Assembly: GCF_002854065.1 (NCBI RefSeq)
Contig: NZ_CP024154.1
Strand: one strand, 5' to 3'
Origin: Escherichia coli
GTDB taxonomy: Bacteria > Pseudomonadota > Gammaproteobacteria > Enterobacterales > Enterobacteriaceae
Length of the DNA: 64,000 nucleotides
This document shows, in pieces, positions 27,001 to 33,000 of this stretch. Position 1 is the first letter of the stretch. Every line of letters begins with the position of its first letter. A program made the position numbers.

Positions 27001-30000
27001 CATGCCAGTACTGTATGCCATTAGCCACCAGGCTGATGCAGAGTGCTGCGCCGCTGTACAGCAACGCCCTGACCAGACCGGGTACCAGCGCGGCCCGTTG
27101 TTCTGACTGTGCGATGGTTCTGAGCACGGGGTTATAAATATCTCCGCTGTTATCCGCTTCCGGTGAGACAGGGGAGGTGGGTTGTGCTTCGCTCATGGTG
27201 CTCCTGTTCAGAGGTTGTAGTCTTTCCAGGGGTCGATATTCCCCGGAAGATGGTCATTCACCCGATCCACGACGGCATCACAGACCTGGTTTTCCAGGTC
27301 GCGGAGGAGCTTGTCCAGGCTGGGGAACTGCGGAAGAGTGATACTGATGTCCTTGATGCGGGACAGGCAGGACTGCAGGGAGGAGGCGACGTCATTCTCC
27401 CGCTGTGACCATGCCTGGCTGGCTGTGCGCGCCCGCTCCCAGGCGGCTCTGCTGCCGGCTTCGGCAGCGGCCCCCGCCCGGCAGGTGGCGGCACCTGCCA
27501 CCGGTGATGCCAGGGTGATGCCGGTCAGTATGACCAGCAGCGTTTTTTTCATGTTCATGGTCGTCCTTACCGGCTCATCGGCCGGGGCTGTGGGATTGTG
27601 CCTGTTGCAGAGTTTTTTCCTGCCTGTCCTCCGCCTTTTGGCTGTCAGACCACTCTTTCCAGGTCTGCTCAAAACCCAGAGAGCGGAAAAGCTTGTCCGG
27701 TTGCTCTTCCGGTTTGTGGATGGCGGCAAACAACGGGGAGTCCTGTTGCTTCAGGTGAAACTGCATTATTTGTGGGGACGGACGCTGATGATTATTCTCA
27801 TCATGGTTAACAGCTTCACCGTAACCGGCAAACTGCAGACCGTTATCCGTCAGGGCATTGATAACCAGCTGACGGTTGTCAGCTGACGGGGTGGCCAGTG
27901 CCGGGTAAAGGGTGCCGTTCAGGCGGACCACGCCCTGCAGATGATCATCTGCGCTGTGGACCAGCAGAAGATTCAACTGACGATTGTCCTTATCGGCAGA
28001 GGCGATGGCTGGTATCAGTTCATTGGGGGCATTACCAGCGAGGGGGAGTCGCATTGATTGATCCTGAGGTGCTGATGCAGGTTGCCTGTCTTCACCAATG
28101 TACAGATTATTGGGAGGATTTTTGGGGGAGCGAACTTCCTGCATTATCTGTGGCCAGTGTTGTTGCATCTGTAACATCACCTGGCTGAATGTTGCCATCG
28201 GAAACTCCAGGGTATGCTGACCCGCATGAGGTTGGTCATTATTAACGGTAATGCCGTTACTGACCGGGGTTATGGCCCAGATATTACGGATACGATCCCG
28301 CGTTTCACCGGACAGCCGGAATGTTTCTCTCGCCTGCAGTGTCAGTGTGACGGGGTCACCCTTCTGATGGTTTTTGACCAGTTCTTCCAGGCCGTTTCCC
28401 CAGTATTCCCGTTTGCCACTGCGGTTGGTGAGCTCCACAAAAAAGCAGCGCCCTTTTCCGGGCGCATACTCTTTTTCTCCGTAGTTTGTCAGGACGGCAG
28501 TCACACTTTCACCGGGGCTGAGCTTGCCGGGCGGCTCTTCCACCGGTGTGTCGGGTTGCTGCGGCTGTGCACTGACAGGGGCTTTTTCTGGCGCAGACGA
28601 CGGGGCGGCGGGGTGTTCCGGTCTGTCGGCCCGGGGGGCTTCAGCTTTTGCCGTGACCGGCGCTTCCGGATGCGGTGTTTCAGCCGTACTGCCTGCTGTT
28701 TGTTCAGCCTCTGCCTTCGGTGACACAGGGGGGGCCGGTTGGGCCATTGTTGTCTCTTCCGGTGACTGGCGGTTGAGTTCCGGCGTGGGTCTGTGGGTGA
28801 CAATGGCATCATGCGCCATCTCTTTTTCCTTGCGGAGTTTTTCCAGTGCTGCCCGCTGGGCCGGGAGTTTCATGCGAACCTTGATGTCGTATTCGACAAT
28901 CAGCTGCATGGCTTTTTGCTTAAAGGCATCACTGCCGGTCAGCTCGATAACGCCGCCATAGAAGTTGGTGGCCACAGCAAGGGCAGCCAGGACCTTTTTG
29001 TCATCCGCGCTGGCGCCATCCACCATTTCGAGACAGTAGAGTCTGTCCAGGAAGGCGGGTTCACCGTCAACGCTGTAGAGCGCAGTCCTGTCGGGAAACT
29101 CTTTGTGTGTAAGATTTTTAAGGATCTCGTCCAGGTTGTGCCGCTGCGGACTGTCGGGACGGCGGGGTGCAAAGATAATCGTGTCCGGTTCCGCTGACGA
29201 TGTGTCTTCCGGGCTGGTTTCCGGTGGTGATGGTGGTGCGACCTCCTCTGTTGCTGTTTCAGCCTCCGTGGGCTTTTTCTCCTGAATAACGGAAGGTTCT
29301 GAGGTGCGTGATTTCACACCGGTCAGAAAACGGCGCAGACGGCTGAAAAGCGATGGCGTTTCAGGGCGGGCTGCTTCATTCGCTGTGCTGGTCTCAGTGG
29401 CGGACACAAGACGCTCTTCCTGCAGTTTATCTTCAGCCGTCGGTTCAGCGGTGGCCTGCCGGACTGGCTGAGTTTCTGCAGGTTCAGAAGGTGAGGCTGT
29501 TTCTGCTGTGCCGGTGTTGTGAACAGCAACCGTGGCATCGGCATTGAGCTCCTCAGCGGGTGCGTTCCTGTTGTCATCGGTGATGTCAGAGGAGTGCTCT
29601 GCGCCGGTCTCAGCGGCAGACGCAACGCTCTTTTCCTGTGCTTTATCTTCTGCCGTCAGTTCAGTGGTCACCTGCTGAACTGGCCGCATCCCGGCCGGTT
29701 CAGAAACTGTATTTGTCTCCGCGTTGTCGGTGTTGTGAACAGTGGGGGCCCCCGGAGTGTCAGCGTTGAGATCTTCCGCAAATGCGCTCCAGTCGTCAGC
29801 GCTGGCCATGGAAACCTGCACTTGTTCTTCAGACTGCGTTGTGGTGGTGTGCTGTGTCCCGGCCGCGTCGGAGAGGGAGGTTTCCGGTGTGTCTTCACTC
29901 CGGGGATGTTCTTCTGCCTGCGTGCTCTGGTTGTCAGCGGTGGTGGCAGAGGCATTTTCTTCACCGGTATCAGCGGTAGCCACAGAGGCATTTTCTTCTC

Positions 30001-33000
30001 TGGTATCGGCAGCGGAAACAACGTTCTCGTGTGGTTTATCTTCTGCGGTCGGTTCAGTGGTTGCCTGCTGCACGGACTGCATCCCGGCAGGTTCAGGAAG
30101 CGTTCCTGTTTCTGCTGTGTCGCTGTTGTGAGCGGTGTCTGTACCTGTGGCGTCTGTATTGAGGTCTTCCTGGTCGCCAGCGGTAGGCACAGAGGTATTC
30201 TCTGTGCCGGTATCAGCGGCAGACGCAATATTCTCCAGTGGTTTATCCGGGGATAACGTCTCCGCAGTTACTGATTGCAGGGATGCATAGGCGGCATAGT
30301 CATCTTCATATGCCTGGTTTTCTGTATCGTCGGAGTGGGTGTCATAAGGCGTATCCTGTGTCGCCAGCTCCGTTTCCGGGGCTGTGCTCTGTCTGTTTTC
30401 AGGGGACATTTGTGGCTTCTCATCTTTTACCGGTGTGAATATCAGGTTGTCGATCACGACAGCCTCACGATGGTCGGCAGTGTCACTGTTGGGTGTGGGG
30501 ATACCGATATGTTTTAACTGTGCATTCATGGCATTCTGAAAGTTGTCCCGTCCCCGGCTGGCGTCCAGGTCATTGAAATCGGTCAGTCCCTGTGCTTTTT
30601 CCGCCTCCGTAAAGGCCGGAATAATGACTTCGCCATTCGTGACTTCTGCGGCCTTTGTTGCACTAAAAACCCCTTTGTTAATTTCCCGTTGATGATCGTT
30701 GTCGGCACAGAAGACAAAGGGGCTGTCAGTCCAGATTTGGCGGGCATTTTCTGCCACGGCAATCATATTGCTGGCATCAACTGTCATCAGAACCGGAAGG
30801 CCGGTTGCTTCGTGCAGGGAGGCTGCAGTAGCGTAACCTTCCGCAAATAACAGGGGGCGGCCATTTTCCGGGGTTCCGAAGGTGAACCAGTTGCCGGTTT
30901 TCTCGGAGTCTTTCAGAATGCGGGCATCCTTCCCGCCGGTGACCGGAATACGCTGGTACGAACGTATTTCTCCCCGGCCGTTGCTGAAGGGAATAACCAG
31001 CTCATTTTTATTGTTCAGCCGCACGCCAGGCGCGGCCCGGATGCCCTTGCGCGTCAGGTATTCATGTGCTGTTGCCTGTGGCAACCTGTTAATATAGGAG
31101 CGGGCATAGCCGGCCTGTTTGTTATACTGTTGCTGCAGTTTACGTGCGTTATCATCGCGCTGTTGCTGAGCGAATGCCCGCAGATGCAGTCTGGCCAGAG
31201 GATCGTGTTGTTCTCCGCCGGAAAATACCCAGTTTGTGGGACTGTCATCGGCGCTCCGGTAGTCGCGGTACCAGCCGGCGGGACGACCATCAAGATAGGC
31301 CCTGTATGCGCCACTTTTGGCCCCTTTTTTGTCATCCCGGGTGGCCACTCTGTGTATGGCTCCGTCCATCTGTGGCAATCCCTGAATAACCAGCCCGGCG
31401 TTTTCCAGGACCTGAGCAAATTCAGTGACCGGATCGCCGGCATCCATCGACAGTTCCTGTGGCCGGGGTAACCAGCGCTCCAGCAGTGAAAGTTCGGTAC
31501 CCGCCCGGGCATACCAGAGCTTTTTTTCTGGATCCCATGCGACAGCTTTGCGGCCATTTAACGGGGGAACCGCATTTTTTACGGCTTCTGTCTCCTCAGG
31601 CGGGACAGCAAGCCAGGTTCGATATCTGGACTTCATGTCGTTCTCCGGGGATTAAAGATGAGGGCGTTGTGATACGCCGGGATGATGAACAAAAGAGGGT
31701 TATTCCGTTCCGCGCCATTCACGGGGTAATTCTGTGCGATGCCGGTACCACCAGGGACGGCCTGACGCCTGTTTACCCTGCACCAGGCTGTACAGACGCC
31801 GGCAGAGCGTCCGGACAGTCCATCCTGAGTACCCCAGGAGCACAAAAAACAGCAGAATGCCGCTGCACACCCAGAATGTTGTTTTTGACGGATACGGAAA
31901 CAGCAGCAGGTAAATCATGGTAAACGGCAACGGGACACCATAAATATTCAGTGGCGGAGTGACATCCCGCCAGAAGCCTTCGCGTTTCATTTGGGGAATT
32001 CTCCGGCCGGGATGAAGAGCGCAGCTTCTGATGCCTCAATGCTGCCCGTCTGATACATGGTCAGAACCTGATCCCGTATCCGCCGTTTTTCCTTGCGAAT
32101 GATTTCATCAATGTAATGCCCCCATGTCGCATGGGACTGCCGGGAGAGCGTATCACGCAGTTCGTCAGTTATGACGATGTATTCCCGGACGGCCTGTCTG
32201 CCACCGTCATTTGTTCTGACCAGGACCTGCACCAGAATGAACTGCACCAGGGAAAGGGTGGCGGCTGCCATTGAATCCCTGATTTCCGGTGGAAATAACC
32301 CCAGCAGCCGGGCAAAGGTTTCACCGGGTGATTTGGTGTGCATGGTGCCGATGCAGAAGTGACCGGTGTTACCTGCCTGGACGGCTGCATCTGCCGTTTC
32401 ATAATCCCTGATTTCACCGATACCGATGATGTCCGGGTTACGGCGAACGGCAGAGCGAAGTCCTGCCGCAAAACTTTCCACATCACGCCCGATTTCGGCC
32501 TGATGGGGTGGCAGAAGGTCATTCTCTCCCCCCAGAATGTATTCCACCGGATCTTCATAGGTCACCGTTTTGCGGTCGGGGAAATGCGTCTGAATGTAGC
32601 GGTACAGTGCCGCTGCCAGTGTGGATTTACCGGAGCCGGTCTCTCCGCAGATGAAACCCAGACCGGTTTTCCGGAGCATGGCATCCAGCAGGTCCGGTTC
32701 AATATTCATGGTGAGGATGTCCGGAATATCGGACGGGATCACCCGCATGGTGACGGAGATTACTTTTTCTTCTGTTGCTGATGTTCCCTGAATCAGATGA
32801 CAGCGCAGGCGAACACGCTGCCCCCGTTGCAGACCGTAGCGACCGGAGGCATCACCGCTGACCTGAATGGTACGGTCCACGGGATGACCGGACAGCACCC
32901 GGGGAAGGACTTCCCGTCCAAACAATTCATCACTCAGCGCCATCATGATGGAGGACGGCAGAGGATGTGCGGACGAACGTACCCGCCGTCCAAAGCGACT

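What the first reader, a model, noticed from the sequence alone, without database searches (positions are those of the whole stretch)
29300..30300. Three diverged ~80-aa tandem repeat units in the SogL primase linker (coordinates approximate)
The central acidic linker of the primase contains three recognisable repeats of a unit like ...LNxDAT...HNTxxAET...EPAGMxxVQQxTTExTAEDKxxE...SAAxT.... Repeat expansion in a linker between the primase and C-terminal domains could tune the length of the protein that is transferred with the DNA.
Basis: seen in the sequence. Interest (0 to 1): 0.35.

Follow-up and report, generated by a model that had tools for sequence, protein, structure and literature searches.

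The report
Repeat-built acidic linker of Sog primase
The plasmid's conjugative primase (Sog) has a floppy, strongly acidic middle section made of three old copies of a roughly 62-residue unit, and relatives carry one to four copies, but nothing yet shows that copy number changes function.

Summary
The sog-like gene (window 27575-31636, minus strand, 1353 aa) lies on an IncK2/Z-type I-complex plasmid. Its linker holds three significant copies of a ~62-aa core unit (aa 490-576, 621-694, 695-760), plus a degenerate fourth copy upstream (aa 429-489). Copies are 48-58% identical in protein and 66-69% in DNA. BLASTP E-values are 1e-11 to 5e-19 with composition correction, and shuffle z-scores are 12-21. 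The array is not strictly tandem: a 44-aa unique spacer separates units 1 and 2.

The region is acidic (net charge -61), predicted disordered, and starts just after the conserved internal SogS start. So it tethers the primase in SogL and forms the N-terminal third of SogS.

The unit is confined to this Sog lineage. R64-type and three other Sog lineages have equally acidic linkers with no internal repeat.

Close relatives carry 1, 2, 3 or 4 full units, through in-frame, in-register deletions and duplications and reshuffled unit types. Three units dominate (about 99% of complete plasmids).

The best reading is a duplication-built disordered acidic tether whose length is tolerated rather than tuned. 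This is a lineage-specific variant of a known protein, of modest interest.

The parts
27575..31636 (-). sog-like CDS (SogL equivalent), 1353 aa
   Evidence: ORF. Pfam DUF5710 (aa 6-57) and LPD7 (aa 852-935). It is 100% identical to the 'DNA primase' CDS of IncK2/Z plasmid CP056607.1, between the traJ/traK-like genes and the traL/traM/traN-like genes.
30824..30841 (-). EGYATA primase motif (aa 266-271)
   Evidence: Read directly in the translation. Conserved in the alignment with R64-type SogL. That this motif defines I- and P-type plasmid primases is from my own recall of Strack et al. 1992, which I did not read here.
30407..30409 (-). Putative internal start codon of SogS (Met410)
   Evidence: It aligns with Met412 of R64-type Sog. 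That residue is the SogS start implied by the pESBL/R64 annotation: SogS 843-844 aa out of 1254-1255 aa. The codon is ATG or GTG in all 8 alleles examined. This is inferred by homology, not shown experimentally for this plasmid.
30170..30352 (-). Degenerate repeat unit u0 (aa 429-489)
   Evidence: It matches the C-terminal two thirds of the unit: E=6e-9 to 3e-7 against u1, z=12.1 against shuffles, and a unit-HMM domain at aa 433-482 with E=2e-5.
30278..30310 (-). Aromatic-acidic motif A, YEDDYAAYASL (aa 443-453), inside u0
   Evidence: Present in all repeat-bearing alleles checked. A similar EEYEDYSAYQEL lies at a different linker position in the R64-type protein. The AlphaFold2 model puts a low-confidence helix here.
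29909..30169 (-). Repeat unit u1 (aa 490-576; core aa 490-551)
   Evidence: Unit-HMM E=9e-35.
29939..30010 (-). Nested 12-aa tandem duplication in the tail of u1: ADTREENASVAT / ADTGEENASATT (aa 543-566)
   Evidence: A 16-nt exact repeat at a 36-nt offset. One copy is absent in 1341-aa alleles, for example complete plasmid NZ_CP145691.1, where the span is 36 nt shorter.
29777..29908 (-). Unique spacer between u1 and u2 (aa 577-620), ending in motif B, DDWSAFAEDL (aa 614-623, window 29768-29797)
   Evidence: No similarity to the units (z below 2). Motif B is also found in the R64 type (DKDWREFEAEL) and in a Salmonella lineage (DDWNAFAEDL).
29555..29776 (-). Repeat unit u2 (aa 621-694)
   Evidence: Unit-HMM E=1e-36.
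29357..29554 (-). Repeat unit u3 (aa 695-760)
   Evidence: Unit-HMM E=2e-30. This is the one unit type (type 11) shared by nearly all alleles.
28832..29083 (-). LPD7 domain (aa 852-935), the first folded element after the linker
   Evidence: Pfam PF18821, E=1.4e-9. AlphaFold2 confidence rises only here.

Best explanation
The stretch is an intrinsically disordered, strongly acidic tether of the conjugative primase Sog. In this plasmid lineage (IncK/B/O/Z-like I-complex plasmids) the tether was built by ancient tandem duplication of a ~62-residue unit.

In SogL it links the N-terminal primase to the LPD7 and C-terminal parts. In SogL's shorter in-frame product SogS it forms the N-terminal third. 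What selection keeps is an open reading frame, negative charge, a lack of hydrophobic residues and a loose sequence motif. It does not keep an exact length.

Because the units still share short stretches of DNA identity, slipped-strand or short-homology recombination occasionally removes or adds whole units in register. Recombination between plasmids also reshuffles unit types. This gives alleles with one to four units, and three units is the common state.

Shown here: the repeats, their age, the charge and predicted disorder, the lineage restriction, the copy-number alleles and the in-register junctions. Inferred: the role as a flexible, DNA-repelling, export-compatible spacer, and the near-neutrality of copy number.
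For: - Repeat significance.
- Composition: net charge -61 over aa 411-765, pI 4.05, 12% hydrophobic residues against 25% elsewhere. The region lies on the disordered side of the charge-hydropathy boundary.
- AlphaFold2 pLDDT is below 50 from aa 413 to 827.
- No Pfam family matches even at E<=10.
- Every Sog lineage tested has an acidic linker (net -26 to -63) of very different length (180-427 aa between fixed offsets) and unrelated sequence. Only this lineage has internal repeats: z=15, against -1.1 to 1.4 in the others.
- The unit profile finds only 13 proteins among 1.84 billion representatives. Twelve are pieces of this same Sog lineage.
- The duplication is old: dS between unit cores is 0.80-0.95.
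- Constraint is relaxed: dN/dS is 0.47-0.59 in the linker against 0.13-0.28 in the folded parts.
- Alleles with 1, 2, 3 and 4 full units exist. All are in frame, and every junction joins equivalent positions of two units.
- The 1152-aa allele corresponds to a crossover next to the longest exact repeat in the window allele: 16 nt at an offset of 603 nt, which is 201 aa.
- Four-unit alleles occur in five complete plasmids.
- Unit types reassort: all four combinations of types 5 or 6 with types 3 or 9 exist.
- The SogS start lies immediately upstream and is start-capable in every allele.
Against: - Unit cores show dN/dS of 0.24-0.37 between paralogues. Thirteen of the 25 residue columns invariant across the window's three units carry synonymous codon differences. 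Across the ten unit types, ten columns are invariant, including a His and a Lys. This is more constraint than a featureless spacer needs and fits a specific binding motif.
- Three units are almost fixed in complete plasmids, which could mean that length is under selection.
- The one- and two-unit alleles I tested were not found in PLSDB (P0011 junction, P0169 and P0156). The P0011 junction was also absent from the 246 complete E. coli genomes that carry this region. Their reality therefore rests on draft assemblies.
- The disorder prediction used an alignment of only six sequences.
Confidence: 0.6

Rival explanations
1. Each unit is a functional docking module, that is, a repeated short linear motif. 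The array would give multivalent binding to a partner. Candidate partners are the coupling complex of the Dot/Icm-like type IVB secretion system, Sog's own DNA-binding part (autoinhibition by an acidic tail), or a recipient protein. Copy number would then set avidity and so the amount or activity of the exported protein.
For: - Purifying selection acts on unit cores despite near-saturated synonymous divergence: dN/dS 0.24-0.37, dS 0.80-0.95.
- Ten columns are invariant across the ten unit types, including His14, Pro27 and Lys45.
- The three-unit state predominates.
- The literature read here says Sog is exported in hundreds of copies, independently of DNA.
- From my own knowledge, not tested here: DotM of the related Legionella system binds glutamate-rich signals.
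Against: - The unit does not exist in R64-type or three other Sog lineages, which serve the same transfer system.
- The unit occurs nowhere else in 1.84 billion representative proteins.
- Alleles with one, two or four units sit in otherwise intact transfer regions.
- No partner is identified.
- dN/dS on about 60 codons is imprecise, and a pure composition constraint also lowers it.
Confidence: 0.25
2. The array is under diversifying pressure because Sog enters the recipient. Its acidic units would act as a decoy or DNA mimic against recipient defences, or would be a target of those defences. Reshuffled unit types and changes in copy number would then be an arms-race signature.
For: - The allele structure is mosaic, with reassorting unit types.
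- The linker has the highest dN/dS in the gene.
- dS is very uneven along sog, which indicates recombination.
- Sog belongs to the 'polyvalent proteins' proposed to act early after entry.
Against: - No segment clearly exceeds neutrality. Unit-level values are 0.25-0.69. The single value above 1 is u0 against L007 (1.12), where dS is only 0.047, and the spacer runs at 0.81-0.82.
- One allele cluster holds 4716 member sequences, and 253 PLSDB records are at least 99% identical across the linker. This is not a picture of rapid turnover.
- No anti-defence family was detected by Pfam. PADLOC was not run.
- There is no evidence of DNA mimicry.
Confidence: 0.08
3. The copy-number polymorphism below three units is an artefact of short-read assembly. 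On this view the array is really invariant, apart from rare four-unit alleles and the 12-aa indel.
For: - The one- and two-unit alleles tested (P0011 junction, P0169, P0156) are absent from PLSDB. The P0011 junction is also absent from complete E. coli genomes.
- No allele with fewer than three units appeared in two 60-row samples of complete records.
- These alleles are known only from draft or Logan contigs.
Against: - Exact DNA repeats in the linker are 16 nt or shorter. That is well below typical assembler k-mer sizes (my own knowledge), so collapse is not expected.
- The 1284-aa allele is on at least 24 contigs from independent samples, in both the Logan and NCBI collections.
- The 1154-aa allele is on 11 contigs. 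A 1264-aa allele is on a 269-kb contig.
- There are many different junctions, and all are in frame and in register.
Confidence: 0.1
4. The apparent repeats are chance similarity within a low-complexity acidic region.
For: The region is compositionally biased: A, T, E, S and D make up 62% of residues. Tandem Repeats Finder sees nothing in the DNA.
Against: - Composition-corrected E-values reach 5e-19.
- z-scores are 12-21 against residue shuffles.
- The equally biased R64-type linker gives z=0.5 in the same test.
Confidence: 0.01

Closest known systems
SogL/SogS of IncI1 plasmids R64 and ColIb-P9 (conjugative DNA primase exported to the recipient)
   Same: - Same gene position, between traK and traL in the MPF_I transfer region.
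- Same domain order: DUF5710, Toprim/EGYATA primase, acidic linker, LPD7, second Pro/Ala-rich linker, C-terminal part.
- About 52-53% protein identity over the full length.
- The internal start that gives SogS is conserved.

   Different: - The R64-type linker has no internal repeat (z=0.5) and no match to the unit profile.
- It is about 50-75 aa shorter and cannot be aligned reliably with this one outside two short motifs.
- The R64-type protein forms one cluster of 10,386 sequences with few length variants (1087-1216 aa), whereas the repeat-bearing lineage splits into many alleles.

Pri of IncM plasmid pCTX-M3, and TraC1/TraC2 of IncP plasmid RP4 (other transferred plasmid primases with nested in-frame products)
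   Same: Each is a large primase with a possible or known shorter in-frame product that lacks or retains only part of the protein. Each is linked to conjugation.
   Different: - Similarity is distant: 23-30% identity for Pri, as reported in the paper.
- TraC1 has a different domain order.
- No relation to the repeat unit was found in the 1.84-billion-protein search.
Polyvalent proteins of conjugative elements (Iyer et al. 2017), from which the LPD7 domain name comes
   Same: A multi-domain protein delivered with the DNA, combining a Toprim primase with LPD-type domains.
   Different: In the text I searched, that paper has no occurrence of 'linker' or 'low-complexity'. The inter-domain segment described here has no family of its own.
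Variable-number protein repeats in disordered spacers generally (for example bacterial surface-protein spacers; from my own knowledge, not tested)
   Same: Repeat units in a non-globular segment, with in-frame copy-number alleles produced by unequal or slipped recombination.
   Different: The units here are old and diverged (66-69% DNA identity, exact matches of 16 nt or less). Changes are therefore rare rather than hypermutable, and the protein is a cytoplasmic, exported DNA-replication protein.

Membership tests
Sog-type conjugative primase (SogL/SogS) of I-complex plasmids | N-terminal primase part with the EGYATA motif and Toprim acidic motifs | tested here: met
   EGYATA at aa 266-271, CADNDH at aa 310-315 and DFNDLD at aa 353-358 are read in the translation and conserved against R64-type Sog. 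Pfam Toprim itself did not pass for the window protein. It is recorded only faintly for close relatives.
Sog-type conjugative primase (SogL/SogS) of I-complex plasmids | Full-length homology to R64/ColIb-P9 SogL, with DUF5710 and LPD7 domains | tested here: met
   Pfam DUF5710 E=1.2e-8 and LPD7 E=1.4e-9. Window-like proteins are 52-53% identical to the R64-type query over 100% of its length.
Sog-type conjugative primase (SogL/SogS) of I-complex plasmids | Location in the MPF_I (Dot/Icm-like) transfer operon between traJ/traK and traL/traM/traN | tested here: met
   Annotation of the identical region in CP056607.1, typed IncK2/Z, MOBP, MPF_I. The neighbouring ORFs are visible in the window.
Sog-type conjugative primase (SogL/SogS) of I-complex plasmids | Second product SogS made from an in-frame internal start | tested here: inconclusive
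   The codon homologous to the R64 SogS start is ATG or GTG in all 8 alleles examined. Translation from it in this plasmid cannot be shown with these tools.
Sog-type conjugative primase (SogL/SogS) of I-complex plasmids | Export of the protein to the recipient during conjugation | not testable with these tools
   Known for ColIb-P9 Sog from the literature read here.
   Megablast matches R64-type plasmids only at the gene ends, at about 76% identity. There is no unit-HMM hit in the R64-type protein and no internal repeat.
Protein tandem-repeat region | Two or more neighbouring segments that are significantly similar beyond composition | tested here: met
   u2 and u3 are adjacent. u1 is separated from u2 by a 44-aa spacer.
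Hypermutable simple-sequence or VNTR contingency locus | Near-identical head-to-tail DNA copies that change number at high frequency | tested here: not met
   Tandem Repeats Finder gives 0 rows. DNA identity is 66-69% and exact matches are 16 nt or shorter. About 99% of complete plasmids keep three units.
Any curated protein repeat or domain family (Pfam) | Match of the linker (aa 410-769) to a Pfam model | tested here: not met
   0 families at E<=10.
Glutamate-rich (E-block-like) type IVB secretion signal | Recognition of the acidic segment by the DotM/DotL-like coupling proteins, and a requirement for it in export | not testable with these tools
   This is only a lead from my own knowledge of Legionella Dot/Icm. 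No computation here bears on it.

The most novel reading that the evidence does not exclude
The conserved ~62-residue acidic units are not mere padding. They would be repeated recognition or decoy modules of a protein injected into the recipient. One possibility is glutamate-rich handles for the Dot/Icm-like coupling complex, setting how much Sog is exported. Another is a DNA-like acidic decoy that shields the incoming strand or occupies recipient DNA-binding defences. Under either reading, unit number and unit type would be selectable traits of IncK/B/O/Z plasmids.
Probability: 0.12. Interest if true: 0.6.

Novelty: new variant of a known kind. Interest (0 to 1): 0.3.

Why it matters
Sog is one of the few proteins known to be pumped in large numbers from donor to recipient by a conjugation machine, and sog is needed for efficient transfer of I-complex resistance plasmids. 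The results show three things:
- Its central third is free in sequence and length across lineages but always acidic.
- One widespread lineage (IncK/B/O/Z-like, common in E. coli and Shigella) built that third from repeats.
- Natural alleles with one to four units exist.

Those alleles are a ready-made series for testing what the acidic region does in export, primase tethering or DNA escort.

On the practical side, the linker is a recombination-prone, length-variable spot. If copy number proves neutral, the finding is simply a tidy example of how disordered linkers grow and shrink.

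Tried and rejected
- Tandem Repeats Finder on 27000-33000 gave nothing, because the repeat is too diverged at DNA level.
- The first self-BLAST attempts returned only the identity hit or nothing. I replaced them with masked segment-versus-rest searches.
- Pfam on the linker alone gave no family.
- Rfam on 27000-32200 gave no match.
- The long alternative-frame ORFs on both strands inside the linker (245 aa on the plus strand, 186 aa on the minus strand) were considered as possible overlapping genes and rejected. Each alternative frame has stops in every allele, and the open stretches differ between alleles.
- An internal-repeat search in the R64-type linker and in three other Sog lineages was negative.
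- Searches of complete plasmids for the 1284-aa, 1264-aa and 1154-aa alleles found only three-unit matches.
- H231, a low-coverage hit that might have been a short allele, turned out to be an IS1203 insertion.
- The 1997 R64 sog deletion study (Narahara et al.) and the 1986 Sog transfer paper are not held in the library. Which sog segment is required in R64 therefore could not be checked.
- Four of the six paper searches turned up papers that mention sog. Those I opened say nothing about repeats in it.
- No fold search was run, because the model of the linker is low-confidence throughout.
- Microhomology lengths at the deletion junctions (2-8 nt) are lower bounds. They were computed on the window allele rather than on the true parents.

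Full report
**Context.** The finding lies inside one long minus-strand ORF, window 27575-31636, which encodes 1353 aa. Pfam finds DUF5710 at aa 6-57 and LPD7 at aa 852-935. The translation carries the EGYATA primase motif at aa 266-271 and Toprim-type acidic motifs. The gene is 100% identical to the 'DNA primase' CDS of E. coli plasmid CP056607.1. That plasmid is typed IncK2/Z, MOBP, MPF_I, and the gene sits between traJ/traK-like and traL/traM/traN-like genes. This is therefore the sog gene of an I-complex plasmid, but not the R64/IncI1 allele. The 1341 R64-type records match only the two ends of the gene, at about 76% DNA identity. An R64-type protein (L004, 1254 aa) aligns well outside the linker and poorly inside it.

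**Is the repeat real?** Yes.
- I compared each candidate unit with the rest of the protein after masking the unit itself. With composition-based statistics, BLASTP gives u1/u2 E=5e-19 (51% identity), u2/u3 E=1e-13 (58%) and u1/u3 E=1e-10 to 3e-12 (54-56%).
- A weaker fourth copy upstream gives E=6e-9 to 3e-7 against u1.
- Smith-Waterman scores of 136-189 compare with about 40-45 (maximum 74) for 1000 residue shuffles, so z is 12.6-20.7. The unique spacer between u1 and u2 scores like noise.
- The equally biased R64-type linker gives z=0.5 in the same kind of test. Composition therefore does not explain the signal.

**Coordinates.**
- u0: aa 429-489, window 30170-30352.
- u1: aa 490-576, window 29909-30169.
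- Spacer: aa 577-620, window 29777-29908.
- u2: aa 621-694, window 29555-29776.
- u3: aa 695-760, window 29357-29554.

The unit is better described as a ~62-aa core with variable tails than as ~80 aa. The array is only partly tandem. At DNA level the copies are 66-69% identical, the longest exact repeat is 16 nt, and Tandem Repeats Finder reports nothing. The tail of u1 contains a nested 12-aa duplication, ADTREENASVAT/ADTGEENASATT.

**What the region is in the protein.**
- Composition: aa 411-765 has 74 Asp+Glu against 13 Lys+Arg (net -61). Its pI is 4.05. Ala, Thr, Glu, Ser and Asp make up 62% of residues. Only 12% of residues are hydrophobic, against 25% in the rest of the protein.
- Disorder: the region lies on the disordered side of the charge-hydropathy boundary. 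An AlphaFold2 model of aa 353-905 has pLDDT below 50 from aa 413 to 827, with three short helical blips. The alignment had only six sequences, so this is indicative. No Pfam model matches.
- SogS: in R64-type plasmids sog yields SogL (1254-1255 aa) and SogS (843-844 aa) from an internal in-frame start. That start is Met412 in L004. It aligns with Met410 here (window 30407-30409), and the codon is ATG or GTG in all eight alleles I examined.
- The array is therefore both the tether between the primase and the rest of SogL and the N-terminal third of SogS. The SogS assignment is by homology only.

**Distribution.**
- A profile of ten unit types was scored against 1.84 billion representative proteins. 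It found 13 hits at E<=0.001. Twelve are fragments or frameshifted pieces of this same Sog lineage, and one is an unrelated repetitive protein.
- R64-type Sog and three further lineages (1183, 1205 and 1349 aa, mainly Salmonella) have no unit hits and no significant internal repeat. Their linkers are nevertheless all strongly acidic (net -26 to -57), and their lengths vary widely.
- The conserved property of Sog linkers is therefore charge and lack of structure. The repeat architecture is how one lineage realises it.

**Polymorphism.**
- Among the listed 90%-identity clusters close to the window protein and to the R64-type query, proteins of the repeat-bearing lineage range from 1150 to 1463 aa.
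- Counting units with the HMM gives one full unit in the 1150-1156-aa proteins and two in the 1222-1284-aa proteins. It gives three in the 1296-1355-aa proteins and four in the 1405-1463-aa proteins.
- Reading the linkers shows that every deletion joins equivalent positions of two units. Examples:
  - ENIASAAD|TGAEHSS joins the u0 tail to the u2 tail, giving 1152 aa.
  - EPTAEDK|AQEK joins u1 to u2, giving 1222 aa.
  - SAAET|STANEA joins u2 to u3, giving 1281 aa.
  - AFAEDLNAD|VTVM removes exactly one unit, giving 1264 aa.
- The 1152-aa allele corresponds to a crossover beside the longest exact repeat in the window allele, 16 nt at an offset of 603 nt, which is 201 aa.
- Four-unit alleles carry an extra 'unit plus spacer' block of about 120 aa.
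- Unit types also reassort. Position 1 carries type 5, 6, 7 or 8. Position 2 carries type 3, 9, 10 or 12. Position 3 almost always carries type 11. All four combinations of types 5 or 6 with types 3 or 9 exist.

**How common the variants are.**
- They are rare. The window-type cluster has 4716 member sequences, and 253 PLSDB records are at least 99% identical across the linker at unchanged length.
- Five of 443 PLSDB records carry four units in one uninterrupted match.
- Two 60-row samples of complete records show only three-unit spans and the 36-nt indel, apart from one four-unit record in the first sample.
- The tested short alleles are absent from PLSDB. The 1284-aa junction is also absent from the 246 complete E. 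coli genomes that carry this region.
- The short alleles occur on at least 24 draft contigs (1284 aa), 11 draft contigs (1154 aa) and one 269-kb contig (1264 aa). The samples are independent and the contigs come from both the Logan and NCBI collections.
- Exact repeats are 16 nt or shorter, so assembly collapse is unlikely. I keep that possibility as a 10% rival.

**Selection.**
- Against two diverged alleles, the linker has dN/dS of 0.47-0.59, compared with 0.13-0.14 in the primase part and 0.23-0.28 in the LPD7 region.
- dS varies more than tenfold along the gene. One example is dS 0.58 in the C-terminal part against L007 but 0.014 against L002. The gene is therefore a recombination mosaic.
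- Between the three unit cores within the window, dS is 0.80-0.95 and dN/dS is 0.24-0.37. Thirteen of the 25 residue columns invariant across the three units carry synonymous differences.
- The duplications are therefore old and the units have been kept under moderate purifying selection. That is more than a pure composition constraint would predict, but the estimates rest on about 60 codons.
- No segment clearly exceeds neutrality. The one value above 1 is u0 against L007 (1.12), where dS is only 0.047.

**Other readings of the DNA.** No alternative frame on either strand is open in all alleles. There is no Rfam match. The long plus-strand and minus-strand alternative ORFs are by-products of the codon bias.

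**Mechanism.**
- The best-supported account (0.6) is a duplication-built, intrinsically disordered acidic tether. Its job is physical, and it would do three things. It would keep the primase flexibly attached to the part that carries the export and DNA-escort functions. It would stay unfolded and soluble for passage through the type IVB system. It would repel DNA.
- Unit number would drift through rare in-register slippage or short-homology recombination and be largely tolerated.
- The main rival (0.25) is that the unit is a repeated docking motif, so that copy number matters. The paralogue dN/dS and the near-fixation of three units speak for it. Its absence from other Sog lineages and the existence of one- to four-unit alleles in intact transfer regions speak against it.
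- An arms-race or decoy reading (0.08) fits the mosaicism but has no positive-selection signal.
- Chance is excluded.

**Comparison with what is known.**
- The protein meets the tested criteria for a Sog-family primase: motifs, domains, synteny and a conserved internal start codon. It fails the test for the R64-type linker.
- The papers I could read describe SogL/SogS, their export and their requirement for transfer, and the LPD7/polyvalent-protein framework. None mentions repeats or copy-number alleles in sog. Key older papers were not available.
- I therefore classify this as a new variant of a known kind, a lineage-specific repeat architecture of the known acidic Sog linker. Interest is modest (0.3). 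It rises only if copy number or unit identity proves functional.

Noticed in passing
window 29939-30010 (aa 543-566): There is a nested 12-aa tandem duplication (ADTREENASVAT/ADTGEENASATT) inside the tail of unit 1, with a 16-nt exact repeat. It is itself polymorphic: 1341-aa alleles in complete plasmids such as NZ_CP145691.1 lack one copy (36 nt).
   Followed up: partly
window 30278-30310 (aa 443-453) and 29768-29797 (aa 614-623): Two short aromatic-acidic motifs stand out in the otherwise featureless linker: YEDDYAAYASL and DDWSAFAEDL. Similar motifs occur in R64-type Sog (EEYEDYSAYQEL at a different position, and DKDWREFEAEL) and in a Salmonella lineage (DDWNAFAEDL). The AlphaFold2 model places its only linker helices there. 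Motif B is duplicated in four-unit alleles and deleted in several one- and two-unit alleles.
   Followed up: partly
window 28532-28786 (aa 951-1035): A second predicted-disordered linker, rich in Pro, Ala and Glu, lies between the LPD7 region and the C-terminal part. It has gaps totalling 24 aa relative to R64-type Sog, the largest being 18 aa.
   Followed up: no
window 27575-31636 versus loci L002, L007: Synonymous divergence is very uneven along sog. For example, the C-terminal 318 codons have dS 0.58 against L007 but 0.014 against L002, while the primase part has dS 0.07 against L007 and 0.22 against L002. The whole gene is therefore a recombination mosaic among I-complex plasmids.
   Followed up: partly
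window about 31637-31700; L008 430-1011; L009-L012 66-647: In the window only about 63 nt separate the traK-like gene from sog. R64-type pESBL has the nuc nuclease gene there. Some close relatives (L008-L012) have a 193-aa ORF upstream of sog, whose identity I did not check.
   Followed up: no
L015 (NZ_CP077437.1, pTW05614-1) 1735-2948; H62 LC620534.1: In an E. coli O111:H8 plasmid, sog is split within the linker by an IS1203 (IS3-family) insertion. In LC620534.1 the linker span is 1 nt short and the gene is annotated as two hypothetical proteins, which indicates a frameshift or a sequencing error.
   Followed up: partly
window 29519-30256 (+), 29668-30228 (-), 29742-30131 (+): Long open stretches in alternative frames on both strands overlap the repeat region. 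They are interrupted differently in different alleles and look like by-products of the GAA/GCA/ACC-rich coding strand.
   Followed up: yes
P0135, P0136, P0137 (R64-type Sog variants of 1205, 1143 and 1087 aa): The repeat-free R64-type gene also has rare shorter variants. In the 1143-aa and 1087-aa proteins the missing residues lie between the primase and LPD7 anchors, so large in-frame linker deletions are not unique to the repeat-bearing lineage. In the 1205-aa protein the distance between those anchors is unchanged (458 aa, as in P0134), so its 50 missing residues lie outside the linker.
   Followed up: partly
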